Source of the DNA: a virus
Taxonomy: Duplodnaviria; Heunggongvirae; Uroviricota; Caudoviricetes
Virus record (IMG/VR): IMGVR_UViG_3300022719_000283
Coordinates: 366,590 to 398,589 of that record
Direction: 5' to 3' (one strand)
Length of the DNA: 32,000 bases
Part shown: piece after piece, positions 1,356 to 22,260 of the stretch
Position numbering within the stretch: position 1 is the first letter of the stretch
Layout of the letters: each line of letters starts with the position of its first letter
Translations under genes and position numbers: made by a program
Notes under the pieces: model-generated
Databases searched by the model: none
What the model was told of the DNA's origin: nothing
The model's input: only the letters and a program-made list of their open reading frames with translations

Positions 1356-2732
1356 ATGTCTTCCCACACCAAAAAGCCCGAGCTCTGGCTCAAGTTTCTA
1401 GAACAGAAGTTCGGGGCGGAGGGAGGGCGGACTAAAGTTCCGAACACGAACACCGAATCTCGTGACAAGTACCCCAAGGTCACGGTTTTCACTCTTCTGC
1501 GCACCGACAGCCGATTCCGGCGCCAAGTCCTTCAGGAATATCGGCGATGGCGACAAGCCCTCAAAGAACAGGCGGCCAAGGGCACTCGTCGAACACCTAT
1601 CCGGATCAAGAGCAAGATCGAGGTGCCCAAGGGAGCACACGCCATCCACAAGTTGATGAAGGATGCCGGCCACGAGCTCTATCTCGTAGGAGGCTCCGTG
1701 CGAGACCATGTGCTCGGCAAGAAGCCCAAGGACTTCGATCTTGCTACGGAGGCATCTCCCGAACAGATCATCGACATCTTGTCGAAAGACAAGCGATTCA
1801 AAGACAAGCTGGACCTCACGGGTGAGCAATTCGGTGTGGTCCGAGTGCGCGATCCGGAAGGCGAAGAATACGAGATCGCCACTTTCCGTGAGGACATCGG
1901 GGAAGGACGTCGCCCGGACGAAGTGAAGTTCACGACCATCGACGAGGATGTGGCTCGCCGGGACTTGACCATCAACGCTCTGTTCTACGACCTGGATACG
2001 AATGAGATCGTCGACTACGTGGGAGGTATTAAAGACGCCAAGGAGGGCGTTATCCGAACTGTGGGGCGCCCCAAGGATCGCTTTCGTGAGGACAAACTTC
2101 GAGTGCTCCGAGTGCTTCGTTTTGCGGGACGCCTAGGCGCTGAGATCGATGACGAGACCTCGAAGGCGATCAAGGATGATCCTGACCTGCATGAAGTGTC
2201 CTCCGAACGCATCCACGATGAGTTCGTTCGAGGCATTACATCGGCGAAAGACCCGAAGCACTACCTCAAAATGATGGATGACCTCAACTTGTTTGAGCAG
2301 GTGTTCCCCGGCCTCAAAGTGGGCAAGACCTACCTGGACACACCGGACCCAGTTCTCCAGATGACCAGTATCCTTCGGGACAACAAACCCGAAGACATCG
2401 AACGAGTCATGCGCGAGATGACGTACACGAAGAATGAGATCCAGAAGGTCTTGTTCTTGCTAAAGATGCGGGATCTCGAGCCGGAAACCGCGTACGGTCT
2501 CAAGAGGGTTTTCAACAAACTGAAGCTGAACCCCTCCGATCTCATGGCCGCAGCGAAAGCTCTGGGGACTCCTTCCATCGACAAAGTCAAAGCCTTCGCC
2601 AACTTTGCCGAGGCACCCCCCGCGTTGACGGGCAAAGAGCTCCTGGAGCGCGGAATGAAGAAGGGCCCAGAGATGGGTCGGGCCATCGCCAAAGCCGAGC
2701 AAGAAGCCTACGAAGCCCTTCTGGCGGACTAG
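1356..2732 (+). CDS. cca: CCA-adding enzyme / tRNA nucleotidyltransferase (class II, PolyA_pol head domain) with an N-terminal extension of about 85-95 aa
   Basis: Motifs present: LYLVGGSVRDHVLGKKPKDFDLAT (GGxVRD...DxD), RRDLTINALFYD and EDKLRVLRVLRFAGRL. The GGSVRD motif starts only at about residue 112, so the N-terminus is extended. No C-terminal HD motif was seen. Confidence 0.9.
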   Translation: MSSHTKKPELWLKFLEQKFGAEGGRTKVPNTNTESRDKYPKVTVFTLLRTDSRFRRQVLQEYRRWRQALKEQAAKGTRRTPIRIKSKIEVPKGAHAIHKLMKDAGHELYLVGGSVRDHVLGKKPKDFDLATEASPEQIIDILSKDKRFKDKLDLTGEQFGVVRVRDPEGEEYEIATFREDIGEGRRPDEVKFTTIDEDVARRDLTINALFYDLDTNEIVDYVGGIKDAKEGVIRTVGRPKDRFREDKLRVLRVLRFAGRLGAEIDDETSKAIKDDPDLHEVSSERIHDEFVRGITSAKDPKHYLKMMDDLNLFEQVFPGLKVGKTYLDTPDPVLQMTSILRDNKPEDIERVMREMTYTKNEIQKVLFLLKMRDLEPETAYGLKRVFNKLKLNPSDLMAAAKALGTPSIDKVKAFANFAEAPPALTGKELLERGMKKGPEMGRAIAKAEQEAYEALLAD

Positions 2733-2733
2733 G

Positions 2734-3999
2734 TTACCAACGAACACCTACAGCTCGAGAGGCGATAAGGATACCGTTTTCCTTCGCCCATTTCTGCACC
2801 CATGTCATCTCGGCCGGGGTCGGCAAACGGTTCCAATCTCCTCGAATTTGGCGCACCGTCTTCGTGGAGTTGTGCAGCTCGATGGTGAGGGTCTTTTCCT
2901 TGTCGACCGCGTAGGACCAGATCGAAAGAGACCGTCGCCCAATGTTCCAGGCGTAGCTGGTGACGCAGTGCCGCAAGGCTTTGCCTTCCTCGTGAAGCCT
3001 CTTGTAGGTGAGAATCTCTGTGATCGTGTGATTCTCCGAGCGCTTTTTCCCCGTCCGAGGGTCCTTGATCTGGCGGTTGTGGAACCAGTCATCCACTCCG
3101 CACGGCTTGAACTTTTCCGGAGGCGGGTTGCGGTAGCTACTTTGTAGGGCCCTACGATTTGCCTGTTGCTCGGCCGCGAGATTTCGGTGCCACGCTTCCA
3201 TGTCTCGCATCAGCGAAACCACCGTGCGCCCCTTGATTGCCCACTCGTTGTTCAAACGACGACAATTGTCGATGTAGTCGATCAAGGGACCCACTTGAAC
3301 CGGATCCAGCATTCCCTGGGCTGAGAACCACTGGATCACTTTGGCCCGGAAACTTTCGGTGCGCTGGCCCCCAAGAAGATCCCCCCATTCGGTCGCACAC
3401 AGGGTTTCTGCCAGAGGACGGTCGCCTCCGTAGCTCTGCACTTGTGTCCATCGAACGGCGTGCACGATCGTCTTGACCTTCTTCTGTTGCATGAAGGCGT
3501 GGCATTGTTTCTTGGTGAAGGCGGCCGAAAAGCGCCCTGCCTTCACTAGCTTGTGCATGCCGAGTCCCTGCGCCAGGTCCACGAAGTTATCTACCATGTG
3601 AAGATTGCCAAGATCTCCCCGCACCTCCTGCCCGTCCCAAAAATCCCCTGTGCCGCGAAACCAAACCTCGAACCAGAAGGCGGGCATCGGGTATTGGCAA
3701 ATCAGATGACGGACGAGACTCCGCAGGATCGTGCCTACCGCCTTTCCTTTGGGTTTCCAGTTTTTGAGATCCCGAACCCACCTATGCTGATAGCGCAGCA
3801 AACGGTGCAACACCACCCAAGCCTGGGGATGTTCCGCGATCTTCCGGCACTTTCGATCCAATGATCTGAAGGGTGTCACCACGAAGACGCTGCCAAACCG
3901 TCGATCGGATACCTTGGCTCTCCGAAACGCCTCCTGAATTCTGGCTTCGCGCTCTTCCTCTTCTGCTCGGCGCGCAGCCAATGTCCAACCCTTAGCCAT
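2734..3999 (-). CDS. PcfJ-like domain protein
   Basis: 421-aa ORF. The C-terminal region ...LHEEGKALRHCVTSYAWNIGRRSLSIWSY...LTIELHN...VRQIRGDWNR matches the EG..m.HCV.sY... signature of PcfJ-like proteins. Confidence 0.65.
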   Translation of the reverse strand: MAKGWTLAARRAEEEEREARIQEAFRRAKVSDRRFGSVFVVTPFRSLDRKCRKIAEHPQAWVVLHRLLRYQHRWVRDLKNWKPKGKAVGTILRSLVRHLICQYPMPAFWFEVWFRGTGDFWDGQEVRGDLGNLHMVDNFVDLAQGLGMHKLVKAGRFSAAFTKKQCHAFMQQKKVKTIVHAVRWTQVQSYGGDRPLAETLCATEWGDLLGGQRTESFRAKVIQWFSAQGMLDPVQVGPLIDYIDNCRRLNNEWAIKGRTVVSLMRDMEAWHRNLAAEQQANRRALQSSYRNPPPEKFKPCGVDDWFHNRQIKDPRTGKKRSENHTITEILTYKRLHEEGKALRHCVTSYAWNIGRRSLSIWSYAVDKEKTLTIELHNSTKTVRQIRGDWNRLPTPAEMTWVQKWAKENGILIASRAVGVRW

Positions 4000-4228
4000 T
4001 TCTACCTCGTCTTCTTCTCAAGTGGCCATAGATGATGTCATCAGCTCGATGATCTGTCCAACCTTCGTCGCACAGGGTGCACTGCAAAACCGGGAACACG
4101 AGCTCAGCAGTATCGACGAGTTCCTTGTTGACGTAATACTCGACCTCGTGGGGACCCATGTCAATTTTGACCTGTCGGGCTCCACAGTTTACGCATTCCT
4201 CGATGCTTCTCACGTTTGCCATCAACAA
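3992..4228 (-). CDS. Small zinc-ribbon protein (YgiT/MqsA-N-terminal-like CxxC...CxxC)
   Basis: 78-aa ORF with CVNCG ... CTLCDEGW. It overlaps the PcfJ-like start by 8 nt, which suggests translational coupling. Confidence 0.55.
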   Translation of the reverse strand: MLMANVRSIEECVNCGARQVKIDMGPHEVEYYVNKELVDTAELVFPVLQCTLCDEGWTDHRADDIIYGHLRRRRGRNG

Positions 4229-4245
4229 AACTACCCGGAGCGCCG

Positions 4246-4800
4246 TCAGTCCTTGGGTAGGGAGGGCTTGTCGGACCCAGAAGCCAGATGATGCATACGA
4301 GACAGGAAATCATCCGGCTCAGAAGAGCGTATACGATTGTCCTGAAACTTGTTTTCGGGATCTTCCTGTTCCTCGCGGGTCAGCCACGCCATCCGGTAGC
4401 TGTCCGGGAAGATGTCGGGCCCCAGGTAGAACAGGATGCCGGTGTCGGAGCCGTCCACCTGAAACTTCACCTGCTTGAGCTTGGCGATGTGTTTCACGAC
4501 GGACCACGCACACTTGGAACCGTCTTCGAGCACGAGGACGGGGTTACGAGAGGTTCCTACCGGGAGCTCCAATTCCCAGGAGGTCCAACCACGATCCGGA
4601 GGACGATAGACAATACCTCCTTTCTCTGTGACCTGAGCCAGGTCGAGCTCGATGAGAACGGGGTCGATGTCCATCGTGTGCAACCAGAGCTCACGCGTAC
4701 CAGGCCAGACTGCCTTGGCAATCTCCCGCGCATGTCCCCGATTTTCGAGCTTGAGTAGGTTCGTGAAAAACTCTCGGAAAAGGTCTTTGGGTTCCATCAT
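4246..4800 (-). CDS. Hypothetical protein
   Basis: 184-aa ORF. It is coupled to the upstream gene by a 4-nt overlap. No motif was recognised. Confidence 0.6.
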   Translation of the reverse strand: MMEPKDLFREFFTNLLKLENRGHAREIAKAVWPGTRELWLHTMDIDPVLIELDLAQVTEKGGIVYRPPDRGWTSWELELPVGTSRNPVLVLEDGSKCAWSVVKHIAKLKQVKFQVDGSDTGILFYLGPDIFPDSYRMAWLTREEQEDPENKFQDNRIRSSEPDDFLSRMHHLASGSDKPSLPKD

Positions 4801-5339
4801 GCGTCCTTTTTCGGGCCATCCCTCAGTATCTGGATGGCGGGTTCGATGTGCTCGTCGAGTAGTCCTCTCTCCCGGGATGTCCGGACTAAGTGAGGAGCCA
4901 GGTAAACGAAACTGTCAGGGCCCATGTCGTCCAGGATCACGAACTGGTTTTCGACCTCGAGCTCTGGGTTCTCGAGGATCCAGGTGTGGATCTGATGGCC
5001 CCGGACCACGTACTGGCCGAGACAGATACCACGACCTCGTACCTGAGACGCCGTAGGAGTTCGTCCGATCACTTTTCCTTGGAGCCCTCTTTTGTCCAGG
5101 ATCCGCTGCATGTCGTTAGAGGTGCAGTGATAGCGCCACGAAGAAGAGATCACGACTTGGGCTTCGGTAGCTTCCAAGATTTTGTTGAGTCGGTCGACAG
5201 CAACCGGGTCCACCATGTGGCACCACCAGTCGTCGCTACCCTCCTTCGGGAAACCGAGATCGTCCTCTTTTCGTAGCAAGTCGAAGAATACCGTGCTGTT
5301 TAGAACCCCGTCCATGTCCAAGAAGAGAATGCGGGTCAT
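4797..5339 (-). CDS. HAD-superfamily phosphatase-like protein
   Basis: N-terminal MTRILFLDMDGVLNS gives HAD motif I (DxDGV). VVISSSWR is motif-II-like. The size and layout resemble stand-alone HAD domains and polynucleotide 3'-phosphatase-like domains. Confidence 0.65.
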   Translation of the reverse strand: MTRILFLDMDGVLNSTVFFDLLRKEDDLGFPKEGSDDWWCHMVDPVAVDRLNKILEATEAQVVISSSWRYHCTSNDMQRILDKRGLQGKVIGRTPTASQVRGRGICLGQYVVRGHQIHTWILENPELEVENQFVILDDMGPDSFVYLAPHLVRTSRERGLLDEHIEPAIQILRDGPKKDA

Positions 5340-5590
5340 GGCAGAAACTCCCGAAAGGCGTTTAGCCCAAGGACTGCCACCTTATATTCTTCCCGTTCCC
5401 AATCTTTGCAGGATCCCGATCGGTGGATGCTCAGTCGACTGGTCTCCTCGCTGTGCTTGAGGTGCGAGTACGTGTGGACGTTGCAGTACCCCCATCCGTC
5501 TTTCGACAGATCGGAGTTGAGGCACGTTTCACACGAAGGGTGAATCGTATAGTCGATCGTCCGCAGCACTTTGAGTTTGTTCGCGTCCAT
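5336..5590 (-). CDS. Hypothetical Cys/His-rich protein
   Basis: The track ORF is 5336-5644. I prefer the start at MDANKLKV (ATG at 5588-5590), which forms a TGATG overlap with the stop of the upstream gene. Confidence 0.5.
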   Translation of the reverse strand: MDANKLKVLRTIDYTIHPSCETCLNSDLSKDGWGYCNVHTYSHLKHSEETSRLSIHRSGSCKDWEREEYKVAVLGLNAFREFLP

Positions 5591-5823
5591 CACTTCTTCT
5601 CGTATTTTTGGATCTTCTTGGCCATCTCCCACCACAAGGGCCATCGTCCAAACTGCGCTCGAAACTCTGAGGCCAACTCGGTGTAGTCGTGACGCACGGA
5701 GCCGTTATCCGGGCACGGCGAGATCTTGTGGGACGCATCGGTCAGATGTGTCAAGACTGCCTCATCGCGCTTGTGTTGCACTCGAGTGCGGAGGTCCCAT
5801 TCTTGCTGATCCATGGCTCCCAT
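5590..5823 (-). CDS. Hypothetical protein
   Basis: The track ORF 5590-5832 begins at TTG. An in-frame ATG at 5821-5823 (MGAMDQQEWD...) lies just after the terminator hairpin. Confidence 0.5.
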   Translation of the reverse strand: MGAMDQQEWDLRTRVQHKRDEAVLTHLTDASHKISPCPDNGSVRHDYTELASEFRAQFGRWPLWWEMAKKIQKYEKK

Positions 5824-5830: not shown

Positions 5831-5862
5831 AAAAACCGGGACCCTCGAAGAAGGGTCCCGGT
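5831..5862 (-). terminator. Rho-independent terminator (second of a tandem pair after tuf)
   Basis: On the minus strand, ACCGGGACCCU-UCUUCG-AGGGUCCCGGU forms a perfect 11-bp stem and is followed by UUUUUG. Confidence 0.6.
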
Positions 5863-5879
5863 AAAACAGCATCTTCATG

Positions 5880-5912
5880 AAAAAGCCCGGTGGGTTCAGG
5901 ATCCCACCGGGC
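5880..5912 (-). terminator. Rho-independent terminator immediately after the EF-Tu stop (possibly bidirectional)
   Basis: On the minus strand, GCCCGGUGGG-AUCCUGAA-CCCACCGGGC forms a 10-bp GC-rich stem and is followed by UUUUUC. On the plus strand the same stem is followed by CAGGUUUUU. Confidence 0.75.
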
Positions 5913-5919
5913 CAGGTTT

Positions 5920-7077
5920 TTAGGCGCTCACCTCCAGGACTACGCCTGCTCCGACCGTTTTTCCGCCTTCGCGGATGGCGAAGCGCATGCCGGGCTCACA
6001 GGCCACGGGCTTCTGGAGATTGAAGGTGATCTCCGCACGGTCACCGGGGTTCACTGATCCCACGTCTCCGACATCGACCACGGCGGTTACGTCGGCGGCG
6101 CCGAAGAAGAACTGGGGCTGGTACCCGGTCCCGAAACCGGTGTGACGACCTCCCTCCTTCTCGGAGAGGGTGAAAATCTCCGCCTTACCGACCTTGTGAG
6201 GCTTGATGGAGTCCGGCTTGATCGCCACCTGACCCCGCTGCACTGCATCACGCTCCACACCGCGCAGGAGAAGCCCGACATTGAGGCCCGCTTTGGCCGC
6301 CGGGATGTCCTTGTGGAACGCCTGGATGCCTGTCACGACCGCCCTGATGGGCTTGTTGTCCGTGCGACCGATGACCTCGACTTCGGTGCCTACGGGGATG
6401 CTTCCGCGCTCCACGCGACCGGTGACGACAGTCCCACGACCCGCGATGGTGCACACACCTTCGATGGGCATCAGGAAATCCCCTGACTCGTCACGCTCCG
6501 GGACCTTGAGGTGGCTGTCCATGGAGGATAGAAGCTCCTTGATGGGCTCGAGGTCATCTCCCTCGAGAGCTTTGAGCGCAGATCCCTTGATGATGGGTGT
6601 GTCCTTGAAACCCTGGGACTCAAGCATCTCGGTGACTTCCATCTCGACGAGCTCGAGCATCTCCGGATCGGCGATGTCCACCTTGTTGATGAACACGACC
6701 ATCTGGCCCACGTTTACCTGACGAGCAAGCAAGATGTGCTCACGCGTCTGGTGCTGGGGGCCCTGGCTTCCATCCACCAGAAGGATCGCCCCGTCCATCT
6801 GGCTCGCACCCGTGATCATGTTTTTGATGTAGTCCGCGTGACCCGGGCAATCGATGTGCGCGTAGTGACGGGTCTCGGACTCGTACTCGACGTGAGAAGC
6901 GGAGATCGTGATGCCACGCTCCTTCTCTTCCTTCGCATTGTCGATCTCCTCGAATGCCTTGGCGTTGCCCCCATGGAGCTCCGCGCAGATCTTCGTGATC
7001 GCGGCTGTGAGGGTGGTCTTCCCATGGTCGACGTGACCGATGGTTCCGACATTGAGGTGCTGCTTTTGCTCGTACAT
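5920..7077 (-). CDS. tuf: Elongation factor Tu (divergent, 385 aa)
   Basis: Starts [23 protein letters not shown] (P-loop). Also has [25 protein letters not shown] and the [16 protein letters not shown]-terminus. The track ORF (5920-7293) runs on through two tRNA genes. The true ATG is at 7075-7077. Confidence 0.93.
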
Positions 7078-7132: not shown

Positions 7133-7217
7133 TGGTTGGTGGGGTCGGAATCGAACCGACCGTGCGTAATACGCTGCGGATTTACAGTCCGCTTCGCCAC
7201 CTTGGCTGTTCCCACCA
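7133..7217 (-). tRNA. tRNA-Tyr(GUA), bacterial class II type, CCA encoded
   Basis: Anticodon arm GCGGA-CTGTAAA-TCCGC, long variable arm, T arm GTCGG-TTCGATT-CCGAC, then CCCACCA-A-CCA. The 85-nt length matches bacterial tRNA-Tyr. The exact 5' end (U1 versus G1) and the D-arm register are uncertain by hand. Confidence 0.8.
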
Positions 7218-7237
7218 ATGTCACCGGGCACGTCCGA

Positions 7238-7308
7238 TCCGGTCGGAGGGATTCGAACCCCCGGGGGGCATGGATTTCATGCCGTCTGACCACTCAGACC
7301 TCGACCGG
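7238..7308 (-). tRNA. tRNA-like gene with a 5-nt anticodon loop (identity undetermined, no CCA encoded)
   Basis: CCGGTCG-AG-GTCT-GAGTGGTC-AGAC-G-GCATG-AAATC-CATGC-CCCCC-GGGGG-TTCGAAT-CCCTC-CGACCGG-A. The acceptor is 7/7 and the D and T arms are canonical. The total is 71 nt, two short, and both missing nucleotides are in the anticodon loop. The alternative fold GGCAT-GAAATCC-ATGCC lacks both U33 and nucleotide 26. Confidence 0.6.
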
Positions 7309-7502
7309 GAACGATCAGGGCTCGCTCCGTGGGCTTAGATGTGGCTCAGAGGTTTAGTCCACCTGAGCGTCCAGCCAACCCACGGAGCTGCAAATAAGCT
7401 CGATACGTCGCGTACATCTGCTTGGCTCCTTCCATGGTTGGGGTTCTCAGGTAATCCCGCCTCAAGCGGGTTTGTCAAGTGTAGTCGAGCTTGATGCAAA
7501 CG

Positions 7503-7946
7503 TCAAGAGAGAAAGTCCGAAAATTTGCTGTCCTTCGTGAAGACGGGCCAGCCTCCTTGAACCCCTTCTTCTGGGGTCTGATCCGTCCAGGTCCGGTGGG
7601 CTTCAGCAACCCATTCACCCACGTAGCTTCCGATGAAGTATTTCACGTCGTCCGGAATTTCAACCACGGCTACTCCAGTGTGCTCCTCACTGACCATGCC
7701 CTCTGATCCGAGTTCGTCGAAGACCTGAAGCAAGGTGGGGTCGTGACGAGGGAGGGTGCTAAGGAGCGAGTATCCCGAATCTTCGCGGTGTTGGGTCTTT
7801 TTCTCATCCCCGTAGGCATAATGGTTCGGCTCATCCACAAGCGGCATGTGCTCCGTGGAGGCCCAGTCGGCTCCGAGCTCTCGGGCACGCAGAATCGCTT
7901 TACGAGAAAGCCAAAGAACGCAGTCATGTGAGATCAGGACTCGCAT
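7503..7946 (-). CDS. Hypothetical protein (weak paralog of 22751-23152)
   Basis: 147-aa ORF with MRVLISHDCVLWLSRKAILRARELGADW..., PRHDPTLLQVFDELG... and VAVVEIPDDVKYFIGSYVGEWV. By eye the pattern is shared with the ORF at 22751. Confidence 0.6.
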   Translation of the reverse strand: MRVLISHDCVLWLSRKAILRARELGADWASTEHMPLVDEPNHYAYGDEKKTQHREDSGYSLLSTLPRHDPTLLQVFDELGSEGMVSEEHTGVAVVEIPDDVKYFIGSYVGEWVAEAHRTWTDQTPEEGVQGGWPVFTKDSKFSDFLS

Positions 7947-8257: not shown

Positions 8258-8803
8258 TTATACCCGTGTGGCCATGAGGGACTTGTCGAACATCCTTCGG
8301 TAAGTGAGAGACACTCTAGCCCCCATCTTTCTTGATCCTTTGGGGATCCTGTGTTCGTATGCCTCCTGAAATCCAGGAGGCATAACAAACAAGGAACCCG
8401 GCTCGAGCAATTTCCTGTTGTTCTCGGGGACAACCCCTCTATCCCCGATTTTCCTCCACCAAATTTCCCTGGCCTCACCAAAAGACACAACGGAGATCGG
8501 GTCTGAGCTCGCGGTATCCGGCGAATCGTCGGAGTGCCAGCCAAGCGCATTCTGTTCGCCCTCGTACCTATTGAGAAAACAGACGTTCGGATTGCCCGGC
8601 ATCTTGGCCATGATGTCAGCGACCCAAGCCAACATGGGGGTTGAGTAGTAAGTCCGAACCCCCCGACCAGAGCCGTAGACGTAGGCTCTGGGGTCGGCCG
8701 ACATGAAGCACTCACGTCTGGCGTTGATCCGGTCTTCCCACGTCACGGATTCGAGAGCGCCTTCGGGGAGCCCCACGAAGGCGGGTATGTATGCGGGTTC
8801 CAT
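8258..8803 (-). CDS. alkB: 2OG-Fe(II) dioxygenase, AlkB-like
   Basis: GWHSDDSPD (HxD), ...YEHRIPK... (second His) and ARVSLTYRR (RxSxTxR). The ATG at 8801-8803 is preceded by GGAGAAG. The track ORF starts at a GTG at 8824. Confidence 0.8.
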   Translation of the reverse strand: MEPAYIPAFVGLPEGALESVTWEDRINARRECFMSADPRAYVYGSGRGVRTYYSTPMLAWVADIMAKMPGNPNVCFLNRYEGEQNALGWHSDDSPDTASSDPISVVSFGEAREIWWRKIGDRGVVPENNRKLLEPGSLFVMPPGFQEAYEHRIPKGSRKMGARVSLTYRRMFDKSLMATRV

Positions 8804-8834
8804 GGAACTTCTCCAAAAGCTCACATCTGCTTAG

Positions 8835-8918
8835 TGCTCAAGAGGGGAGTCGAACCCCTAAGATGTTTCCATCACCCGGACCTGAGCCGAGCGCGTCTGC
8901 CAATTCCGCCACTTGAGC
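8835..8918 (-). tRNA. tRNA-Leu(CAG), class II, CCA not encoded
   Basis: GCTCAAG-TG-GCGGAATTGGCAGACGC-G-CTCGG-CTCAGGT-CCGGG-(variable arm)-AGGGG-TTCGACT-CCCCT-CTTGAGC-A, followed by CUA. Confidence 0.88.
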
Positions 8919-9055
8919 AAGAGCTCCCAGGAGCTACCTGGGAGATTCAAGAGTAAGAGAGGTTTTCCACCCCCACCGCCCTAAGCGGCGTCTGACCTTC
9001 CAGGGAGCGTCCTCCCCAGCTTTCGCGATGCCTCGCAGTAGTCAGTTCTTTCTCT

Positions 9056-9142
9056 TGGTACCGATGAGAGGGGTCGAACCTCCAAGGGATTACTCCCACA
9101 GGATCCTTAATCCTGCGCGTCTACCAGTTCCGCCACATCGGC
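9056..9142 (-). tRNA. tRNA-Leu(AAG), class II, CCA encoded
   Basis: GCCGATG-TG-GCGGAACTGGTAGACGC-G-CAGGA-TTAAGGA-TCCTG-(variable arm)-GGAGG-TTCGACC-CCTCT-CATCGGT-A-CCA. The 7-nt loop UUAAGGA puts A at position 34. Confidence 0.8.
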
Positions 9143-9295
9143 AAGTCTAAGAGCGAGAGAGTTGAAGAGATGGTGTTGCTACGCGCTCTATCCAACTGAG
9201 CTACTCCCCGTCATTGTCGGGGAGGCAGGGCTCGAACCTGCGACCTCGGGTACCGAAAACCGATGCTTGTGATCTCATCGTAGTTCTCGCTCTTA
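9143..9295 (-). ncRNA. Permuted tRNA-like module P1 (T arm and 3' acceptor strand upstream of 5' acceptor strand and D arm, with a terminal helix)
   Basis: Minus-strand order is as follows. It opens with U-AAGAGCGAGA (9294-9285), A, and CUACG (9283-9279). Two small hairpins and AGGUC follow. Next is the T arm GCAGG-UUCGAGC-CCUGC (9241-9225), then CUCCCCG-A (9224-9217) and the linker CAAUGA. The second half is CGGGGAG (9210-9204), UA, and GCUC-AGUUGGAUA-GAGC. It closes with G, CGUAG (9183-9179), 20 nt, and UCUCGCUCUU-A (9158-9148). The acceptor strands are 7/7 complementary. The RNA ends form an 11-bp helix and abut the flanking tRNAs. Confidence 0.6.
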
Positions 9296-9372
9296 TGGTC
9301 GAGGCGAGAGGATTTGAACCTCCGACCCCCGATCCCCCAGATCGGTGCGCTGCCAGACTGCGCTACGCCTCG
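9296..9372 (-). tRNA. tRNA-Pro(GGG), CCA encoded
   Basis: CGAGGCG-TA-GCGC-AGTCTGGCA-GCGC-A-CCGAT-CTGGGGG-ATCGG-GGGTC-GGAGG-TTCAAAT-CCTCT-CGCCTCG-A-CCA. Confidence 0.9.
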
Positions 9373-9548
9373 AGATTTTTCTTGGCTGCCTTTCGAGCTG
9401 CCTTCTCTCGTTGTTTCTCTTTCCGTCGTCGGTTTCTGAGGGTGGGGTTGATCTTTTCAGCCTGCTCACAGCGAGTTCGCTGTTCTTCGAGAAACTGATC
9501 GACCTCCTCGGTATGGGTGCCCTCGCGGGCCCACTCAACGATCCGGAT
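9363..9548 (-). CDS. Possible small basic protein with no canonical start codon (tentative)
   Basis: An open frame ends at TAG 9365-9363, inside the 5' end of tRNA-Pro(GGG). It translates as ...IRIVEWAREGTHTEEVDQFLEEQRTRCEQAEKINPTLRNRRRKEKQREKAARKAAKKNLEA. AAGGAGG (9562-9556) lies 7 nt upstream of ATC (9548), but no ATG, GTG or TTG is in frame. The track's overlapping ORF (9293-9571) is Ser/Arg/Pro-rich and reads through the tRNA. Confidence 0.3.
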   Translation of the reverse strand: MRIVEWAREGTHTEEVDQFLEEQRTRCEQAEKINPTLRNRRRKEKQREKAARKAAKKNLEA

Positions 9549-9600
9549 AAAGCCGCCTCCTTGTTGTCCATGTGATGATGTCTGCCATCGTTCTGTTCCT

Positions 9601-9677
9601 TGGTCGGGGCGAGAGGATTCGAACCTCCGGCCTTACGGTCCCGAACCGTACGCTCTGCCAGGCTGAGCTACGCCCCG
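9601..9677 (-). tRNA. tRNA-Pro(CGG), CCA encoded
   Basis: CGGGGCG-TA-GCTC-AGCCTGGCA-GAGC-G-TACGG-TTCGGGA-CCGTA-AGGCC-GGAGG-TTCGAAT-CCTCT-CGCCCCG-A-CCA. Confidence 0.9.
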
Positions 9678-9711
9678 ATGTACTTGTCGTGAAAAAGTTA
9701 CTGTTCAAATG

Positions 9712-9783
9712 CGTTCCCGACAGGATTCGAACCTGTGACCTTTGGTTTCGGAGACCAATGCTCTTCCGCTGAGCTACGAGAAC
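9712..9783 (-). tRNA. tRNA-Arg(CCG), CCA not encoded
   Basis: GTTCTCG-TA-GCTC-AGCGGAA-GAGC-A-TTGGT-CTCCGAA-ACCAA-AGGTC-ACAGG-TTCGAAT-CCTGT-CGGGAAC-G, followed by CAU. Confidence 0.85.
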
Positions 9784-9874
9784 AACTGCTGCACCCCCTC
9801 CGGTGGGAACCGCCCCCACAACCTCCGAGGACTGCTCGGTGTTCTTCTCGTTGAACTACGGAGGATGTGCAGCA

Positions 9875-9950: not shown

Positions 9951-9994
9951 ATGTTGTATTTCGTGAAATGTTGCTGAAGGCAGATTTCTCCTGT

Positions 9995-20196: not shown

Positions 20197-21435
20197 TCAC
20201 GCGAAGTGGCCTCGGATGGTGTTGAGGGCCGCTTTGAGACCACCCTCGGTCTTGGGGAAAGTTTCCGTGGAGTGCCCCTTCCCGTAAATCCAGAGCTCTG
20301 TCTCGATGGTATCTCCGGCTACGGTGCCCCACTTGAGCGCGGCCGTCTTGCGAGGGCCCGGATCTTCCTGGTCGTTGTCTTCGTCGTATTTGAAGGTCTC
20401 CTGCGGATGTCGAGACGCGATACGGGGACGGAAGAACCAGAAGTTCTTCTCCCCTTCCTCACGGTCTTTGCCGGAAGATCCAATCCAGCCGAGCCCCTTG
20501 AGCTCGAGATCGGGATCCTTCTCGAGTAGCTCTTTGAGCAATGCCCAGGTGAGGTCCGTATCGCGCCATCGTCGGAAGTCTTCGTCCTGTTTCTTCTTGT
20601 ACTCCTGGCGGCGCCGATCTTGCTCCTGGCGGTAGTCGGATTTCCAGGTGTCCAGCACCACCAAGACGTCTCCACGACGTTCGAGCGTGAGTTTCAGATC
20701 TACCTCCCGATCCCAGTTGGATTCATCGTCGTACGTTTCTCCGATCTCGTTCAACTGCTCCATCGAGATATCATCCTCCCTTTGGCCCGTTGGCTTGAAG
20801 ATCGAAGCCGACTCGTAGACCGTGATGGTTCCGTCCTCATTGAAAGTAGGGTCTTTCTCATCGGCATAGAGGGCTGTTTGGGTCGCCTCGGAAAGATGGT
20901 CCTTGTGTTTCTCGTACTCCTCGACCGAGGTGATGACGGGGATCTCGGGCCAGCCTTTGCTGGGGTCCCTGAAATCGTAAAACCGGAACTCATACGGGGC
21001 AGCCCAGTGGCATCCGTCGACCAGGAGCGTCTGGCCGTCGGGGCTCAGAAAAGCGCGGGCCCAGCAAAACCCCAAGCCATCATAGTGGTACTCCTGGGGC
21101 TCGTGCTCGATCCCGGCATCGAGATCCACGATGGTCTGGCTCATGTACGAACGCCCGGTGATCAGGTACTCATGGTCATCCTTGGTGACGAACGAGTGAT
21201 GAAATATCGAGTAGTTGCGCACGATGTCGCAGACCATCTCGTCATCGGAGACCCGGTAAACAGTTCCGCGGGAGTAGTTCCAGCATCCTTCCTTGGTCGC
21301 GTACCAACGGATAAGCAGCCGGTAGCGACCTGAAGGAGACAGCTTCTCTTCGGTTTTCGATTTCTGGTTCTCCGGGCAGATGAACTTTTCGGTTTCGCGC
21401 CGGTTTTTCAGATTCTTCTGTGTGGTGTCTTTCAT
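20197..21435 (-). CDS. Hypothetical protein (412 aa)
   Basis: The start MKDTTQKNLK (ATG at 21433-21435) is preferred because the track extension overlaps a tRNA-like gene. The central and C-terminal regions are charged. No motif was recognised. Confidence 0.7.
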   Translation of the reverse strand: MKDTTQKNLKNRRETEKFICPENQKSKTEEKLSPSGRYRLLIRWYATKEGCWNYSRGTVYRVSDDEMVCDIVRNYSIFHHSFVTKDDHEYLITGRSYMSQTIVDLDAGIEHEPQEYHYDGLGFCWARAFLSPDGQTLLVDGCHWAAPYEFRFYDFRDPSKGWPEIPVITSVEEYEKHKDHLSEATQTALYADEKDPTFNEDGTITVYESASIFKPTGQREDDISMEQLNEIGETYDDESNWDREVDLKLTLERRGDVLVVLDTWKSDYRQEQDRRRQEYKKKQDEDFRRWRDTDLTWALLKELLEKDPDLELKGLGWIGSSGKDREEGEKNFWFFRPRIASRHPQETFKYDEDNDQEDPGPRKTAALKWGTVAGDTIETELWIYGKGHSTETFPKTEGGLKAALNTIRGHFA

Positions 21436-21449
21436 GGTTTGTTCTCTCT

Positions 21450-21524
21450 TGGCGCCCTCGGCAGGATTCGAACCGCACGACCTTCTCCCGTGAAGGAAAT
21501 GCTCTACCACTGAGCTACGAGGGC
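21450..21524 (-). tRNA. tRNA-like gene, Val(CAC)-like, with weak anticodon and T stems (possible pseudo-tRNA)
   Basis: GCCCTCG-TA-GCTC-AGTGGTA-GAGC-A-TTTCC-TTCACGG-GAGAA-GGTCG?-TGCGG-TTCGAAT-CCTGC-CGAGGGC-G-CCA. The acceptor is 7/7 and the D arm is fine. The T stem pairs only 2-4 positions and the anticodon stem has a C:A mismatch. A competing hairpin is CCTTC-ACGGGA-GAAGG. Confidence 0.5.
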
Positions 21525-21554
21525 GGAATATCGCCTAGAAGGCGACAGGGTGGA

Positions 21555-21821
21555 TCAAGCTGCGACCTCCTCGACTTCATACCGTTTGGCAACTCGCTCG
21601 GCGGTCTCACGGCAGTAGTCGGCATCGGGGAGGTGGTGACGACCACGGACCCACGCACGCAGGATGCACAGCTCCGTCGCCTGTCGCTTGAGAGAGATCA
21701 GCTCCAACTGAAGATTACCCATCGAGCGAGTCCAGGTGGATCGGAGCTCTTTCTTGACCGCACGTATGCGGTCCTCGAGTTCACGCCGATCTTGCTTGAG
21801 TTTGGGAAGGTTGATGTTCAT
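21555..21821 (-). CDS. Hypothetical protein
   Basis: The start MNINLPKLKQ (ATG at 21819-21821) follows the stop of the upstream gene. The N-terminus is coiled-coil-like. Confidence 0.55.
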   Translation of the reverse strand: MNINLPKLKQDRRELEDRIRAVKKELRSTWTRSMGNLQLELISLKRQATELCILRAWVRGRHHLPDADYCRETAERVAKRYEVEEVAA

Positions 21822-21831
21822 GTTTGTCCTT

Positions 21832-22260
21832 TCATTTGAGCAGCGGCAAGCTGCTGGTGACTTTCTTGACGAGCTTCCGATCAGCCACGGGACAGATCCC
21901 AAGGGCCATCAGGGCTCCGTTGTATGGAGGGTCGGGTTCCCGAACCGCCACATGAGGAATTGCGAAACGCTGCAACTTCTCCTCCAGGAACTTGAGGTGC
22001 TCCTCGCTCCTGGCGGCCAAAGCTACGGCGAACGTGCCGGTCGGGACGCCCTTCTCCGGAGTGCTCTCCCCTGCCGCATGGATCGTTTGGGCCACCGCGC
22101 ACCCAATCGGAAGATCCGCCCTCACGATGACATAGTGCGTCAGCGGATGGCAGGCCCTACGGGTTTCGAACCCGCTGCCCTCGAGACGCTTACCCTCGAG
22201 ACCCCTCCTCTGGGGAAGGCCCATGATGTTGTCGAGGAACCTTCGCAGGGTGGTGGCCAC
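21832..22260 (-). CDS. Peptidyl-tRNA hydrolase, PTH2 (archaeal/eukaryotic-type) family
   Basis: HYVIVRADLPIGCAVAQTIHAAG aligns by eye with the VxVRxDL..G...AQ..HAA core of PTH2. FAVALAARSEEHLKFLEEKL..., ...VREPD... and ALMALGICPV...LVKKVTSSLPLLK match the C-terminal half. The start may instead be M13 at 22224. Confidence 0.7.
   Translation of the reverse strand: MATTLRRFLDNIMGLPQRRGLEGKRLEGSGFETRRACHPLTHYVIVRADLPIGCAVAQTIHAAGESTPEKGVPTGTFAVALAARSEEHLKFLEEKLQRFAIPHVAVREPDPPYNGALMALGICPVADRKLVKKVTSSLPLLK

What the first reader, a model, noticed from the sequence alone, without database searches (positions are those of the whole stretch)
1356..22260. Translation and tRNA-maintenance gene set in a virus-like context
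Within about 21 kb of otherwise anonymous small ORFs, the window encodes:
- a CCA-adding enzyme
- EF-Tu
- a PTH2-type peptidyl-tRNA hydrolase
- AlkB, a dioxygenase known to demethylate RNA and tRNA as well as DNA
- a HAD phosphatase resembling polynucleotide 3'-phosphatase domains
- a histidine phosphatase
- at least 16 tRNA or tRNA-like genes

Each protein family is well known on its own. Their co-occurrence with permuted and aberrant tRNA-like RNAs suggests a coordinated module. Such a module could supply, repair, recycle or mimic tRNAs during infection. This is inference from gene content only.
Basis: inference. Interest (0 to 1): 0.7.

Follow-up and report, generated by a model that had tools for sequence, protein, structure and literature searches.

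The report
Huge-phage-like tRNA and translation island
This stretch is a real cluster of tRNA genes, tRNA look-alikes, an EF-Tu gene and tRNA-care enzymes on a roughly 619-kb virus-like genome probably tied to marine or soil myxobacteria; such clusters are already described in huge phages, so it is a good new example rather than a new kind of system.

Summary
All six proteins are at the stated coordinates, and the window has 13 ARAGORN tRNAs plus at least four tRNA-like RNAs.

- **Weaker calls:** the "CCA enzyme" cannot be separated from poly(A) polymerase by sequence. The in-window PTH2 is a divergent subfamily.
- **Context:** it is not a housekeeping chromosome. The exact CCA and PTH2-like proteins are on record on a 618,736-bp JGI contig. 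A 201-kb scaffold is collinear with the window over about 39 kb. Relatives of 190-497 kb are filed in IMG/VR, where EF-Tu sits inside arrays of 20-43 tRNAs.
- **Missing evidence:** no capsid, terminase or tail gene was seen in about 80 kb inspected, so "phage" is likely but not proven.
- **EF-Tu:** it forms its own unit: promoter-like site, degenerate tRNA, tRNA-Tyr, tuf, strong terminator. It belongs to a divergent clade (54-59% identity to ordinary EF-Tu) shared with Nannocystaceae paralogues.
- **tRNA mimics:** two circularly permuted, acceptor-capped tRNA-like RNAs are real. One shows covariation.
- **Conservation:** the full gene set is kept only in the closest relative, so this is a loose island, not a fixed cassette.

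Huge-phage tRNA, EF-Tu, CCA and PTH2 repertoires are already published. Verdict: a new member of a known kind, of moderate interest.

The parts
230..407 (-). tRNA-Leu(CAA) 230-314 and tRNA-Leu(TAA) 325-407, both with encoded CCA
   Evidence: ARAGORN; Rfam 46.8 and 52.2 bits; sequences. The same pair lies beside the CCA gene in L002 and L006.
1356..2732 (+). Class II nucleotidyltransferase (CCA-adding / poly(A) polymerase family), 458 aa, with a basic N-terminal extension of about 100 aa
   Evidence: Pfam PolyA_pol 121 bits plus PolyA_pol_RNAbd; phrog_2244. Motifs GGSVRD..DFD, RRDLTINA and EDKLR read. NCBIfam cannot tell CCA from PcnB. The exact protein is on record on a 618,736-bp contig.
2734..5644 (-). 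Run of genes with overlapping stops and starts: orf102 (5336-5644), HAD_SAK_2 phosphatase (4797-5339), orf184 (4246-4800), orf78 (3992-4228), PcfJ-like (2734-3999)
   Evidence: Pfam HAD_SAK_2 101 bits and PcfJ 47 bits. HAD motif DMDGV read. 4- and 8-nt overlaps from the coordinates. The order is conserved in L002.
5835..5913 (-). Two intrinsic-terminator-like hairpins just after the EF-Tu stop codon
   Evidence: stems of 11 and 12 bp followed by T-runs.
5920..7077 (-). EF-Tu, 385 aa, of a divergent clade
   Evidence: Pfam; TIGR00485 534 bits against 522. G1-G5 motifs read. 54-59% identity to ordinary bacterial EF-Tu; 70-81% to Nannocystaceae paralogues. Tree.
7133..7506 (-). Leader of the tuf unit: promoter-like TTGACG-17-TACACT (7479-7506), long hairpin (7309-7410), degenerate tRNA (7238-7308), tRNA-Tyr(GUA) (7133-7217)
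   Evidence: (hairpin z = -4.9). One search shows a 4-nt deletion in the anticodon loop relative to the L002 copy. tRNA-Tyr also sits directly upstream of tuf in L002, L004, L006 and Enhygromyxa salina.
8258..8824 (-). AlkB-type Fe(II)/2-oxoglutarate dioxygenase
   Evidence: Pfam 2OG-FeII_Oxy_2 62 bits; phrog_21963 153 bits; ALKBH3/ALKBH2 E about 3e-10. HSD..H..RxSxTxR read.
8834..10323 (-). tRNA array behind promoter-like TTGACT-17-TACACC (10296-10323). In transcription order: Pro(UGG), Arg(ACG), cloverleaf-like RNA 9784-9874, Arg(CCG), Pro(CGG), Pro(GGG), permuted Y-RNA-like tRNA mimic 9143-9295, Leu(AAG), structured spacer 8919-9055, Leu(CAG)
   Evidence: Arg(CCG) and Leu(CAG) lack an encoded CCA.
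9143..9295 (-). Circularly permuted tRNA-like RNA #1: 11-bp terminal stem, T-arm, acceptor stem capped by a 7-nt loop, D-arm
   Evidence: Rfam YrlA 37 bits, below the gathering score of 69, core only. Conserved in L002 and L006. 11 of 36 pairs change on both sides, 0/500 shuffles.
11126..11869 (-). Histidine phosphatase (branch 1), RHG and GHG motifs
   Evidence: Pfam 93 bits; motifs read. No specific NCBIfam family reaches its cut-off. Conserved beside GmrSD_C in L002 and L006.
17345..17470 (-). Circularly permuted tRNA-like RNA #2: T-arm, TCCCCGC-T-CCA, loop, GCGGGGG, Leu-type D-arm, anticodon-like arm with a 6-nt loop, closing stem GGAUC/GAUCC
   Evidence: Sequence. The minimum-energy fold is the permuted cloverleaf. 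Found by the scan. No homologous copy was available for covariation.
20111..21524 (-). Unusual tRNA with anticodon loop GUAAGCA / AAG (20111-20189), a gene of unknown function (20197-21447) and a degenerate tRNA (21450-21524)
   Evidence: In L117 the two tRNAs are adjacent and the second is an intact tRNA-Glu(UUC). The protein models as a beta-rich, propeller-like fold, pLDDT 93.5, with no informative PDB match.
21832..22232 (-). Divergent PTH2-like gene (core from about 22134) with a tRNA-like element (22146-22232, encoded CCA, 9-nt loop GGUAAGCGU) abutting or overlapping its 5' end
   Evidence: Pfam 25.2 bits. Profile against PDB Pth2, E = 6e-5. Family alignment. tRNA-like element conserved in L117, with acceptor changes that keep pairing.

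Best explanation
The window is part of a tRNA and translation island, more than 30 kb long, on a very large virus-like genome. The contig on record is 618,736 bp. It is most likely an uncultivated huge phage whose host, or main gene-exchange partner, is a Nannocystaceae myxobacterium.

**What the sequence shows**
- **tRNA supply:** the element carries its own decoding set as operons behind similar TTGAC-N17-TACAC promoter-like sites. In the window these are whole isoacceptor families for Leu, Pro and four-box Arg, plus Tyr. Three tRNA-Glu genes lie just outside.
- **EF-Tu:** one operon couples tRNA-Tyr to a functional-looking EF-Tu, as the cellular tufB operon does.
- **Enzymes acting on tRNA ends and bases:** a CCA-family nucleotidyltransferase, which three CCA-less tRNA genes would need and which could rebuild damaged 3' ends. 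There is also a HAD_SAK_2 phosphatase, a histidine phosphatase, an ALKBH2/3-like AlkB, and PTH2-type hydrolases (one divergent copy in the window, one canonical copy 6 kb to the left).
- **tRNA mimics:** two circularly permuted, acceptor-capped tRNA-like RNAs are transcribed within or beside the arrays.

**What is inferred**
- During infection the element keeps translation running when host tRNAs are depleted, cleaved or ill-matched to its lower-GC codon usage.
- It would do this by flooding the cell with its own tRNAs and supplying extra EF-Tu to carry them.
- It would also heal and re-tail damaged tRNA ends, remove alkyl lesions, and free tRNAs trapped as peptidyl-tRNA.

This is a loose island of several units, not one fixed cassette.
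For: **Gene identities:**

**Context**
- The exact CCA and PTH2-like proteins are on record on a 618,736-bp JGI contig.
- The 201,556-bp scaffold is collinear with the window from DUF3228 to CCA.
- IMG/VR contigs of 190-497 kb carry EF-Tu at 57-71% identity inside arrays of up to 43 tRNAs per 21 kb. L006 and L004 also share PcfJ, GmrSD_C, His_Phos, small ORFs and the tRNA order.
- DUF7873 is found in 75 phage records. phrog_10079 hits at 342 bits lie next door on the relative.
- A T4 endonuclease V-like glycosylase is in the window.
- The best phage hits of the CCA gene are 634-642-kb uncultured phages.
- GC is 57% against 67-71% in Nannocystaceae loci.

**Host link**
- EF-Tu is 70-81% identical to Enhygromyxa, Nannocystis and Paraliomyxa proteins, and the window nests among them.
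- The PTH2-like protein is 60-61% identical to proteins of Nannocystaceae ST9 and Enhygromyxa sp..

**Operon structure:**

**Codon use:** CTT, CCT, CGT and CGA are used 4-9 times more than in the host proxies and are read by the encoded tRNAs.

**CCA-less tRNA genes:**

**Left extension:** a canonical PTH2 (102 bits), an ASCH-domain protein, PARP and three tRNA-Glu.

**Literature:** the same functional logic is published for huge and jumbo phages (PMC7162821; PMC7824862).
Against: - No capsid, portal, terminase or tail gene was seen. Inspected: the 32-kb window, 8.6 kb to its left, 39 kb of the collinear scaffold and the IMG/VR flanks.
- The window sequence itself is not in IMG/VR.
- No RNA ligase, polynucleotide kinase or Rsr/Ro was found, so a complete repair pathway is not present here.
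- CCA, HAD_SAK_2 and AlkB are not linked to EF-Tu in the other viral loci. AlkB is swapped for a radical-SAM gene in the nearest relative.
- tRNA-Leu(UAA) is encoded although TTA is essentially unused in the window's genes. Codon matching alone therefore does not explain the set.
- Substrates of AlkB and of both phosphatases are unknown.
- The in-window PTH2-like family lacks the Lys of the Pth2 GK motif and the DAGxT motif.
- Two of the 'tRNA-like' elements look like decaying tRNA genes.
Confidence: 0.7

Rival explanations
1. The element is not a virus. It would be a giant plasmid, another extrachromosomal element or a very large genomic island of a Nannocystaceae-like bacterium. The tRNA and translation genes would then be accessory copies serving the cell, for example as a stress-time tRNA array like those of cyanobacteria and mycobacteria.
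For: - No structural or packaging gene was found in about 80 kb.
- The window is not in IMG/VR.
- A PcfJ-like protein is typical of conjugative plasmids.
- Relatives carry very cell-like items: RNase P RNA, tmRNA, an aminoacyl-tRNA synthetase and malate synthase.
- Close EF-Tu and PTH2-like homologues sit in real Nannocystaceae chromosomes.
Against: - Syntenic relatives are filed as viral genomes in IMG/VR.
- Phage-restricted families are present: DUF7873, phrog_10079, and a T4 endonuclease V-like enzyme.
- No conjugation genes other than PcfJ-like, and PcfJ-like proteins also form PHROG families.
- GC is 10-14 points below the putative host.
- Dense short ORFs, mostly without a family, fit a phage better.
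Confidence: 0.17
2. The genes are independent cargo that merely share the non-structural region of a huge phage.
- AlkB would repair or demethylate DNA.
- The HAD, histidine and metallo-phosphatases would act on nucleotides or defence signals.
- EF-Tu would serve a non-translational role, such as a decoy for an EF-Tu-targeting defence or an assembly or replication cofactor.
- Only the tRNAs, the CCA enzyme and PTH2 would concern tRNA.
For: - The set is not conserved as a unit.
- Several separate transcription units exist, with a helicase, a GmrSD_C nuclease and a glycosylase interspersed.
- Iyer et al. read phage AlkB as acting on DNA methyl marks (PMC7824862).
- No specific family is assigned to either phosphatase.
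- EF-Tu has known non-translational roles with phages: T4 head assembly and Q-beta replicase (cited in PMC13157829).
Against: - EF-Tu lies within a tRNA operon here, and inside tRNA arrays in more than 15 independent viral contigs. That argues for a role tied to tRNA.
- All GTPase motifs are kept and the EF-Tu equivalog score is passed.
- The HAD belongs to the family defined on RNA-repair proteins.
- The nearest solved AlkB relatives include ALKBH3, which acts on single-stranded nucleic acid and tRNA (plus established knowledge).
- The PTH2-like gene is welded to a tRNA-like element in many genomes.
Confidence: 0.3
3. This is an ordinary bacterial chromosome segment and these are its housekeeping genes.
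For: EF-Tu passes the NCBIfam EF-Tu equivalog. tRNA-Tyr directly upstream of tuf recalls the tufB operon.
Against: - No ribosomal-protein, fusA, secE or nusG neighbours.
- EF-Tu is only 54-59% identical to ordinary EF-Tu of every phylum sampled.
- About three quarters of the ORFs have no family.
- Isoacceptor-complete arrays with permuted mimics are present.
- Relatives are viral-classified.
- PTH2 rather than the bacterial Pth1.
Confidence: 0.03

Closest known systems
Translation-gene repertoires of huge phages (Al-Shayeb et al. 2020, Nature; PMC7162821)
   Same: Genomes over 200 kb with tens of tRNAs, a CCA-adding enzyme, elongation factors including Tu, and tmRNA. The proposed role is sustaining or redirecting translation.
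   Different: - Here EF-Tu is built into a tRNA operon and belongs to a clade shared with Nannocystaceae paralogues.
- The lineage has a GC of 57-65% and is unrelated, apart from the CCA gene, to the curated 634-kb phage tested.
- No virion genes have been seen yet.
Jumbo-phage RNA repair and tRNA provisioning systems (Iyer, Anantharaman, Krishnan, Burroughs, Aravind 2021; PMC7824862)
   Same: tRNAs plus a CCA-adding enzyme plus archaeo-eukaryotic-type PTH2, sporadic AlkB, end-healing phosphoesterases, and in a few phages a TROVE protein with a tRNA-like partner.
   Different: - No RNA ligase, polynucleotide kinase, RlaP or TROVE gene was found here.
- EF-Tu is not discussed in that survey (0 occurrences).
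- The phosphatase here is of the HAD_SAK_2 type.
Bacterial tufB-type operon (tRNA genes co-transcribed with tuf; established knowledge)
   Same: Promoter, tRNAs including tRNA-Tyr, tuf, terminator. Enhygromyxa salina has the same tRNA-Tyr-tuf pair.
   Different: - No secE, nusG or ribosomal genes downstream.
- The EF-Tu is a divergent paralogue type.
- It lies on a virus-like element.
YrlA / bacterial Y RNAs bound by Rsr (Chen et al. 2014; PMC4201824)
   Same: An RNA whose ends pair in a long stem and whose body is a tRNA-like T-arm, closed acceptor stem and D-arm. The 7-bp acceptor followed by NCCA in the relatives recalls M. smegmatis YrlA, which is cut by RNase P and receives CCA.
   Different: - Rfam score of 37 against a gathering score of 69, with only the tRNA-like core aligning.
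- No rsr gene nearby.
- It sits inside a tRNA array, where flanking tRNA processing would release it.
Phage T4 Pnkp/Rnl tRNA repair (established knowledge)
   Same: A HAD-type phosphatase that could heal RNA 3' ends after anticodon-nuclease attack.
   Different: The kinase and ligase partners are absent from the window. HAD_SAK_2 is a separate family, and no solved relative was detectable by sequence.
Xanthomonas jumbo phage XacN1, with 56 tRNA genes for all 20 amino acids (PMC5852040)
   Same: A near-complete tRNA set concentrated in one genome region (abstract).
   Different: No detectable DNA similarity to any of the 50,697 deposited phage records other than a 49-base tRNA-Pro match. The EF-Tu, permuted mimics and RNase P RNA found in this lineage are not mentioned in that paper's abstract, which is all that was read.

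Membership tests
Elongation factor Tu | Three-domain architecture and a score above the curated equivalog cut-off | tested here: met
   GTP_EFTU, D2 and D3. TIGR00485 534.2 bits against a cut-off of 522.4; PRK00049 550 against 449.
Elongation factor Tu | Intact GTPase motifs G1-G5 ([25 protein letters not shown]) | tested here: met
   Read directly in the translation.
Elongation factor Tu | Housekeeping context (str or tufB operon with ribosomal, secE or nusG genes) and about 70% or more identity to other bacterial EF-Tu | tested here: not met
   Neighbours are tRNAs and anonymous ORFs. 54-59% identity to EF-Tu of many phyla. It forms a separate clade with huge-contig and Nannocystaceae paralogue sequences.
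CCA-adding tRNA nucleotidyltransferase (class II) | Pol-beta head domain with GGxVRD..DxD, RRD and EDxxR motifs, plus the RNA-binding body | tested here: met
   Pfam; motifs read.
CCA-adding tRNA nucleotidyltransferase (class II) | Distinction from poly(A) polymerase or A-adding enzymes | tested here: inconclusive
   NCBIfam scores: CCA 199.1 (cut-off 290) against PcnB 196.2 (cut-off 305). PHROG names it a tRNA nucleotidyltransferase. An activity assay is needed.
Peptidyl-tRNA hydrolase PTH2 | Family-level sequence and fold match over the whole domain | tested here: met
   Pfam 25.2 bits against 23. A profile of 15 homologues matches Pth2 structures 1rzw and 2zv3 at E = 6e-5 to 8e-5 over the full length.
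Peptidyl-tRNA hydrolase PTH2 | Conserved active-site motifs (GK..AQ..HA Lys; DAGxT) and the equivalog score | tested here: not met
   The Lys is replaced and DAGxT reads EPD..P in the whole subfamily. NCBIfam 23.9 bits against a cut-off of 126. A canonical PTH2 that does pass (92.5 against 82) lies 6 kb left of the window.
AlkB dioxygenase | 2OG-Fe(II) fold with HxD...H and RxxxxxR | tested here: met
AlkB dioxygenase | RNA or tRNA, rather than DNA, as substrate | not testable with these tools
   The nearest solved relatives are ALKBH3 and ALKBH2. Substrate cannot be read from sequence.
HAD_SAK_2 (HAD phosphatase of RNA-repair proteins) | Pfam model above cut-off and the DxDG(V/T) nucleophile motif | tested here: met
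   101.5 bits against 27.5. DMDGV, SSSW and LDD read.
HAD_SAK_2 (HAD phosphatase of RNA-repair proteins) | Association with RNA ligase or kinase partners | tested here: not met
   No ligase or kinase domain in any scanned ORF of the window or its neighbours.
Histidine phosphatase, branch 1 | RHG catalytic motif plus the second His, and the Pfam score | tested here: met
   93 bits. RHG and GHG read. No specific subfamily reaches its cut-off.
YrlA / Y RNA | Rfam gathering score | tested here: not met
   37 bits against 69; model positions 23-86 only.
YrlA / Y RNA | tRNA-like domain with a closed acceptor stem, carried on a stem formed by the RNA's two ends | tested here: met
   (11 pairs change on both sides; slid controls give 0-2).
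YrlA / Y RNA | Encoded next to rsr (Ro60/TROVE) | tested here: not met
   No TROVE hit among the scanned ORFs or in the precomputed Pfam lists for about 80 kb.
Tailed huge phage (Caudoviricetes) | Major capsid, portal, large terminase and tail genes | tested here: inconclusive
   None was found in the regions reachable. More than 85% of the 618-kb contig could not be fetched.
Tailed huge phage (Caudoviricetes) | Relatives classified as viral, and phage-restricted gene families | tested here: met
   IMG/VR contigs L004, L006, L027 and others. DUF7873, phrog_10079, Pyr_excise.

The most novel reading that the evidence does not exclude
A widespread but undescribed lineage of 200-620-kb virus-like genomes would carry an almost self-contained tRNA system.

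- **Contents:** full tRNA sets, their own clade of EF-Tu embedded in the arrays, and in some members RNase P RNA and tmRNA.
- **New RNA family:** circularly permuted, acceptor-capped tRNA-like RNAs released by tRNA processing.
- **Possible roles of these mimics:** decoys or sponges for host tRNA-targeting nucleases; scaffolds for repair enzymes; or two-piece tRNAs after an RNase P cut.
- **EF-Tu origin:** the divergent EF-Tu paralogues of Nannocystaceae would have come from such elements. In Nannocystis pusilla the paralogue lies beside rtcR-rtcB-rtcA.
Probability: 0.3. Interest if true: 0.72.

Novelty: new member of a known kind. Interest (0 to 1): 0.45.

Why it matters
- **A clean example:** it shows how far large virus-like genomes go towards owning the decoding machinery. 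EF-Tu is wired into a tRNA operon, whole isoacceptor families are encoded, and tRNA end-care enzymes and two PTH2 types are present.
- **A new host link:** it ties such an element to Nannocystaceae myxobacteria. I know of no huge phage described for this family, but I did not search the literature on that point.
- **Testable leads:**
  - Whether phage-clade EF-Tu is tuned to phage tRNAs.
  - Whether the permuted tRNA mimics protect against anticodon nucleases.
  - Whether RNase P RNA is truly virus-encoded in relatives. My literature searches found no paper reporting that.

Tried and rejected
- **Source contig:** an exact 41-mer of the window is not in IMG/VR. A protein scan of JGI metagenome contigs with ORF 28042-28539 found nothing. 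The 618-kb contig is listed for the exact proteins but could not be fetched.
- **Walking along an IMG/VR contig:** exact-match search yields only about 5 kb per scan, so I dropped it.
- **Virion genes:** Pfam and PHROG scans of the largest ORFs in L002, L004, L006, L010, L013, L025 and L117 found none.
- **Curated 634-kb phage LR745206:** it shares only the CCA gene with the window and has 29% GC. It is not a relative.
- **Gene 20197-21447, flanked by odd tRNAs:** 907 homologues, a confident model (pLDDT 93.5) and a propeller-like fold, but PDB matches have TM of only 0.2-0.3. No tRNA link could be shown. In L117 the two tRNAs are adjacent and a shorter homologue lies elsewhere.
- **Solved-structure searches:** uninformative for orf184, the HAD protein and the histidine phosphatase.
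- **T-loop-like site at 11242-11252(+):** no tRNA-like fold; treated as chance.
- **Generic promoter scan:** not above chance, 2 found against 3.1 expected. Only the shared TTGAC-N17-TACAC pair stands out, 2 against 0.14.
- **Genome scan with EF-Tu:** swamped by ordinary tuf genes because one pattern is universal. It was useful only for showing 54-59% identity.

Full report

Yes.
- **CCA-family enzyme.** Pfam finds a PolyA_pol-head nucleotidyltransferase with its RNA-binding domain at 1356-2732(+).
- **EF-Tu.** A three-domain EF-Tu lies in the ORF 5920-7293(-). Its start is the ATG at 7077, downstream of two tRNA genes that the long ORF overlaps.
- **Other enzymes.** HAD_SAK_2 phosphatase at 4797-5339(-), an AlkB-type dioxygenase at 8258-8824(-), a branch-1 histidine phosphatase at 11126-11986(-) (true start probably 11869), and a weak PTH2 match at 21832-22260(-).
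- **Independent support.** PHROGs agree for the nucleotidyltransferase, EF-Tu and AlkB.
- **Catalytic motifs, read in the translations.**
  - Nucleotidyltransferase: GGSVRD..DFD, RRDLTINA, EDKLR.
  - HAD: DMDGV.
  - Histidine phosphatase: RHG and GHG.
  - AlkB: HSD..H..RxSxTxR.
  - EF-Tu: all five GTPase motifs.
- **tRNAs.** ARAGORN finds 13, all on the minus strand. Rfam confirms 10 at its gathering score. The T-loop motif GGTTCRANNCC occurs 17 times against 0.9 expected.

**2. Which calls are weaker than the finding implies?**

- **CCA or poly(A) polymerase.** NCBIfam gives 199 bits for the CCA enzyme and 196 for PcnB, both below cut-off. 'CCA-adding' is therefore the likely reading, not a proven one.
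- **PTH2-like protein.**
  - It scores just above the Pfam cut-off. A profile of 15 homologues matches archaeal Pth2 structures end to end at E = 6e-5.
  - The whole subfamily has lost the Lys of the GK motif and the DAGxT motif. It also fails the NCBIfam equivalog, 24 bits against 126.
  - A canonical PTH2 lies about 6 kb left of the window, next to an ASCH-domain protein, a PARP-domain protein and three tRNA-Glu genes. It scores 102 bits in Pfam and passes TIGR00283.
  - The island therefore extends beyond the window.
- **Other ORFs in the range.** They are not all anonymous: PcfJ-like, GmrSD_C, a PcrA/UvrD-type helicase and DUF7873 are there. To the right lie a metallophosphoesterase, DUF3228 and a T4 endonuclease V-like glycosylase.

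**3. The tRNA-like RNAs**

- **Permuted element #1, 9143-9295(-).**
  - It lies between tRNA-Pro(GGG) and tRNA-Leu(AAG). It reads as T-arm, acceptor 3' strand, a 7-nt loop, acceptor 5' strand and D-arm, all carried on an 11-bp stem formed by its two ends.
  - Rfam's YrlA model matches its tRNA-like core at 37 bits, below the gathering score of 69.
  - The element sits at the same array position in two relatives.
  - On that alignment 11 of 36 pairs change on both sides. Pairing is 94%, no shuffle out of 500 reaches this, and slid controls give 0-2.
- **Permuted element #2, 17345-17470(-).** It folds by minimum free energy into a permuted cloverleaf with an encoded CCA before the capping loop.
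- **Element #3, 22146-22232(-).**
  - It has an acceptor stem, a T-arm, an encoded CCA and a 9-nt loop, GGUAAGCGU. It abuts or overlaps the annotated 5' end of the PTH2-like gene.
  - Its T-arm is what gene callers translate as 'SGFETRRA' in many homologues.
  - Against the 201-kb relative, its acceptor changes keep pairing.
- **Other structured stretches.** 9784-9874(-) is cloverleaf-like (z = -4.2), and the spacers at 7309-7410 and 8919-9055 are strongly structured.
- **Decayed copies.** The 'aberrant' tRNAs at 7238-7308 and 21450-21524 have damaged anticodon loops. Their counterparts are intact in the relative.
- **CCA ends.** Most tRNAs encode CCA. Leu(CAG), Arg(CCG) and the 7238 element do not.

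**4. What is the context?**

- **No close deposited phage.** There is no near-identical DNA among 50,697 phage records.
- **Source contig.** The exact nucleotidyltransferase and PTH2-like proteins are on record on a JGI contig of 618,736 bp. That contig could not be fetched. Short Logan and JGI contigs carry the same sequence.
- **Collinear relative.** A 201,556-bp metagenome scaffold is collinear with the window over about 39 kb. Its gene order is DUF3228, metallophosphoesterase, PTH2-like, DUF7873, helicase, GmrSD_C, His_Phos, tRNA array, EF-Tu, HAD_SAK_2, PcfJ, CCA. EF-Tu is 92% identical and CCA 83%.
- **IMG/VR relatives.**
  - IMG/VR holds 26 contigs with related EF-Tu, many of them 190-497 kb.
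  - L006 and L004/L027 share further genes and the tRNA order with the window.
  - In these contigs EF-Tu sits inside arrays of up to 42-43 tRNAs per 21 kb.
- **Phage families.** DUF7873 occurs in 75 deposited phages. Two phrog_10079 genes flank the syntenic region. The nucleotidyltransferase's best phage matches are 634-642-kb uncultured phages.
- **GC.** The window has 57% GC, against 67-71% in Nannocystaceae loci.
- **Conclusion on context.** All of this rules out an ordinary chromosome. It does not prove a virion: no capsid, portal, terminase or tail gene turned up in roughly 80 kb inspected. A non-viral giant element stays possible.

**5. EF-Tu and the host link**

- **Divergence.** The protein passes the EF-Tu equivalog. 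It is only 54-59% identical to the EF-Tu of bacteria from many phyla.
- **Closest named relatives.** These are from Enhygromyxa salina (81%), Nannocystaceae MAGs, Paraliomyxa and Nannocystis pusilla (73%).
- **These look like paralogues.** In E. salina and N. pusilla the genes stand alone, away from ribosomal genes. The E. salina copy has tRNA-Tyr directly upstream, as in the window. The N. pusilla copy lies near rtcR-rtcB-rtcA.
- **Tree.** A neighbour-joining tree puts the window and the 201-kb relative inside this Nannocystaceae group. That group lies inside a larger clade of EF-Tu from the huge viral contigs, apart from ordinary EF-Tu. The tree is distance-based and midpoint-rooted, so the direction of transfer is open.
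- **PTH2-like family.** It also has its nearest named relatives in Nannocystaceae, at 60-61%. The nucleotidyltransferase does not.
- **Inference.** The host, or the main exchange partner, is a Nannocystaceae myxobacterium.

**6. How it probably works**

*Shown*
- Two promoter-like sites share the form TTGAC-N17-TACAC, 2 found against 0.14 expected.
- One heads the Pro/Arg/Leu array.
- The other heads a unit of hairpin, degenerate tRNA, tRNA-Tyr and EF-Tu. That unit ends in two strong terminators. It has the layout of a tufB-type operon.
- The HAD gene lies in a run of genes with overlapping stops and starts that ends with PcfJ-like.
- The window's genes use CTT, CCT, CGT and CGA four to nine times more than the host proxies, and the encoded tRNAs read them.
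- TTA is unused, yet tRNA-Leu(UAA) is present. The relatives carry near-complete tRNA sets.

*Inferred*
- The element replaces, rather than only tops up, the host tRNA pool.
- It adds EF-Tu in step with tRNA output.
- It completes or rebuilds 3' ends with the nucleotidyltransferase.
- It clears end phosphates with the HAD and histidine phosphatases.
- It removes alkyl lesions with an ALKBH2/3-like enzyme.
- It releases tRNA from stalled peptidyl-tRNA with PTH2.

This logic is already published for jumbo and huge phages (PMC7824862; PMC7162821).

*What the window lacks*
- An RNA ligase, a kinase and Rsr are all missing.
- The set is not a conserved cassette.
  - CCA and HAD_SAK_2 accompany EF-Tu only in the closest relative.
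  - AlkB is replaced by a radical-SAM gene there.
  - PTH2-like and AlkB appear near EF-Tu only sporadically elsewhere.

**7. Comparison with what is known, and novelty**

- Tens of tRNAs, a CCA-adding enzyme, PTH2, sporadic AlkB and elongation factors including Tu are all reported for huge or jumbo phages.
- The finding is therefore a new member of a known kind.
- Features not found in the papers I searched:
  - EF-Tu wired into tRNA operons as a recurring trait of one group of huge contigs.
  - The link to Nannocystaceae.
  - Circularly permuted, acceptor-capped tRNA-like RNAs recurring in these arrays. They occur in the window twice and in L002, L004/L027, L006, L007, L011, L012, L013, L021 and L025. 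No convincing case appeared in 80 bacterial tuf loci.
  - Full-length RNase P RNA on two relatives. My searches found no paper reporting that.
- These features raise the ceiling of interest. They rest on contigs whose viral nature I could not verify myself.

**8. Verdict**

- The best explanation is a tRNA and translation island of a huge phage-like element, at confidence about 0.7.
- Interest is 0.45.

Noticed in passing
L002 6886-7229 (+); L011 5552-5904 (+): Full-length bacterial class A RNase P RNA (241 and 263 bits) lies inside the tRNA arrays of the 201-kb syntenic scaffold and of a 252-kb IMG/VR contig. The window has none. My literature searches found no paper reporting phage-encoded RNase P RNA.
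   Followed up: partly
L011 18222-18576; L021 6329-6559: A tmRNA (tag ANDNSTALPALLAA) and a group I intron occur in the EF-Tu/tRNA arrays of two IMG/VR contigs.
   Followed up: no
window 9143-9295(-), 17345-17470(-); L004/L027 ~18245; L011 ~2657 and ~4854; L013 ~5003 and ~7454; L012 ~4939; L025 ~6940; L007 ~6220; L021 ~8712: Acceptor-capped, circularly permuted tRNA-like RNAs recur in the arrays of the EF-Tu-bearing viral contigs. The L011 and L013 copies share flanking motifs: GGACUACAUC on the 5' side and GUCUUUGC..CUUGU.G.CGCU on the 3' side. No convincing case was seen in 80 bacterial tuf loci.
   Followed up: partly
window 20111-20189(-), 22146-22232(-); L117 10789-10867; L005 16811-16888: tRNAs or tRNA-likes with enlarged anticodon loops containing GUAAGC. 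In L005, ARAGORN calls a four-base anticodon UAAG. The loop is identical between the window and the 201-kb relative. Possible roles are quadruplet decoding or a nuclease decoy; neither was tested.
   Followed up: partly
L114 1-8645 (DNA immediately left of window position 1): The island continues to the left. It holds three tRNA-Glu genes, a canonical PTH2 (102 bits), an ASCH/DUF3850 protein, a 549-aa PARP-domain protein, an M23 peptidase, a PilZ protein and a fatty-acid hydroxylase.
   Followed up: partly
L111 7001-13444 (Nannocystis pusilla); L003 9821-11155 (Enhygromyxa salina): The divergent EF-Tu paralogue of Nannocystaceae stands alone. In N. pusilla it is one gene away from rtcR-rtcB-rtcA. 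In E. salina tRNA-Tyr lies directly upstream.
   Followed up: partly
window 28881-29288(-), 23637-24461(+), 24961-25737(-): A T4 endonuclease V-like pyrimidine-dimer glycosylase (82 bits), a calcineurin-like metallophosphoesterase and a DUF3228 protein. The last two are conserved next to the PTH2-like gene in the 201-kb relative.
   Followed up: no
L002 7674-9104: A 476-aa radical-SAM protein occupies the slot that AlkB holds in the window, between the tRNA array and the EF-Tu unit.
   Followed up: no
L004 5454-6881: An IS605 OrfB/TnpB-like gene (Cas12f1-like TNB domain) sits just upstream of the tRNA array in the 372-kb IMG/VR contig.
   Followed up: no
window 20197-21447(-): A member of a large unnamed protein family: 907 representatives at E <= 1e-3, with a conserved N-terminal region of about 170 residues. 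The model is confident (pLDDT 93.5), beta-rich and propeller-like. In the window the gene splits a tRNA pair that is adjacent in the relative.
   Followed up: yes
window 9601-9649: The 5' part of tRNA-Pro(CGG) is 92% identical to the tRNA-Pro attachment site of Paracoccus phage vB_PyeM_Pyei1. This was the only near-DNA hit among deposited phages, and it probably reflects tRNA conservation only.
   Followed up: no
L010 12288-14972 and 18947-20494: A class I aminoacyl-tRNA synthetase (Ile/Leu/Val type) and a malate synthase lie within 10 kb of EF-Tu on a 332-kb IMG/VR contig with 41% GC. This contig may be cellular or a very gene-rich phage.
   Followed up: no
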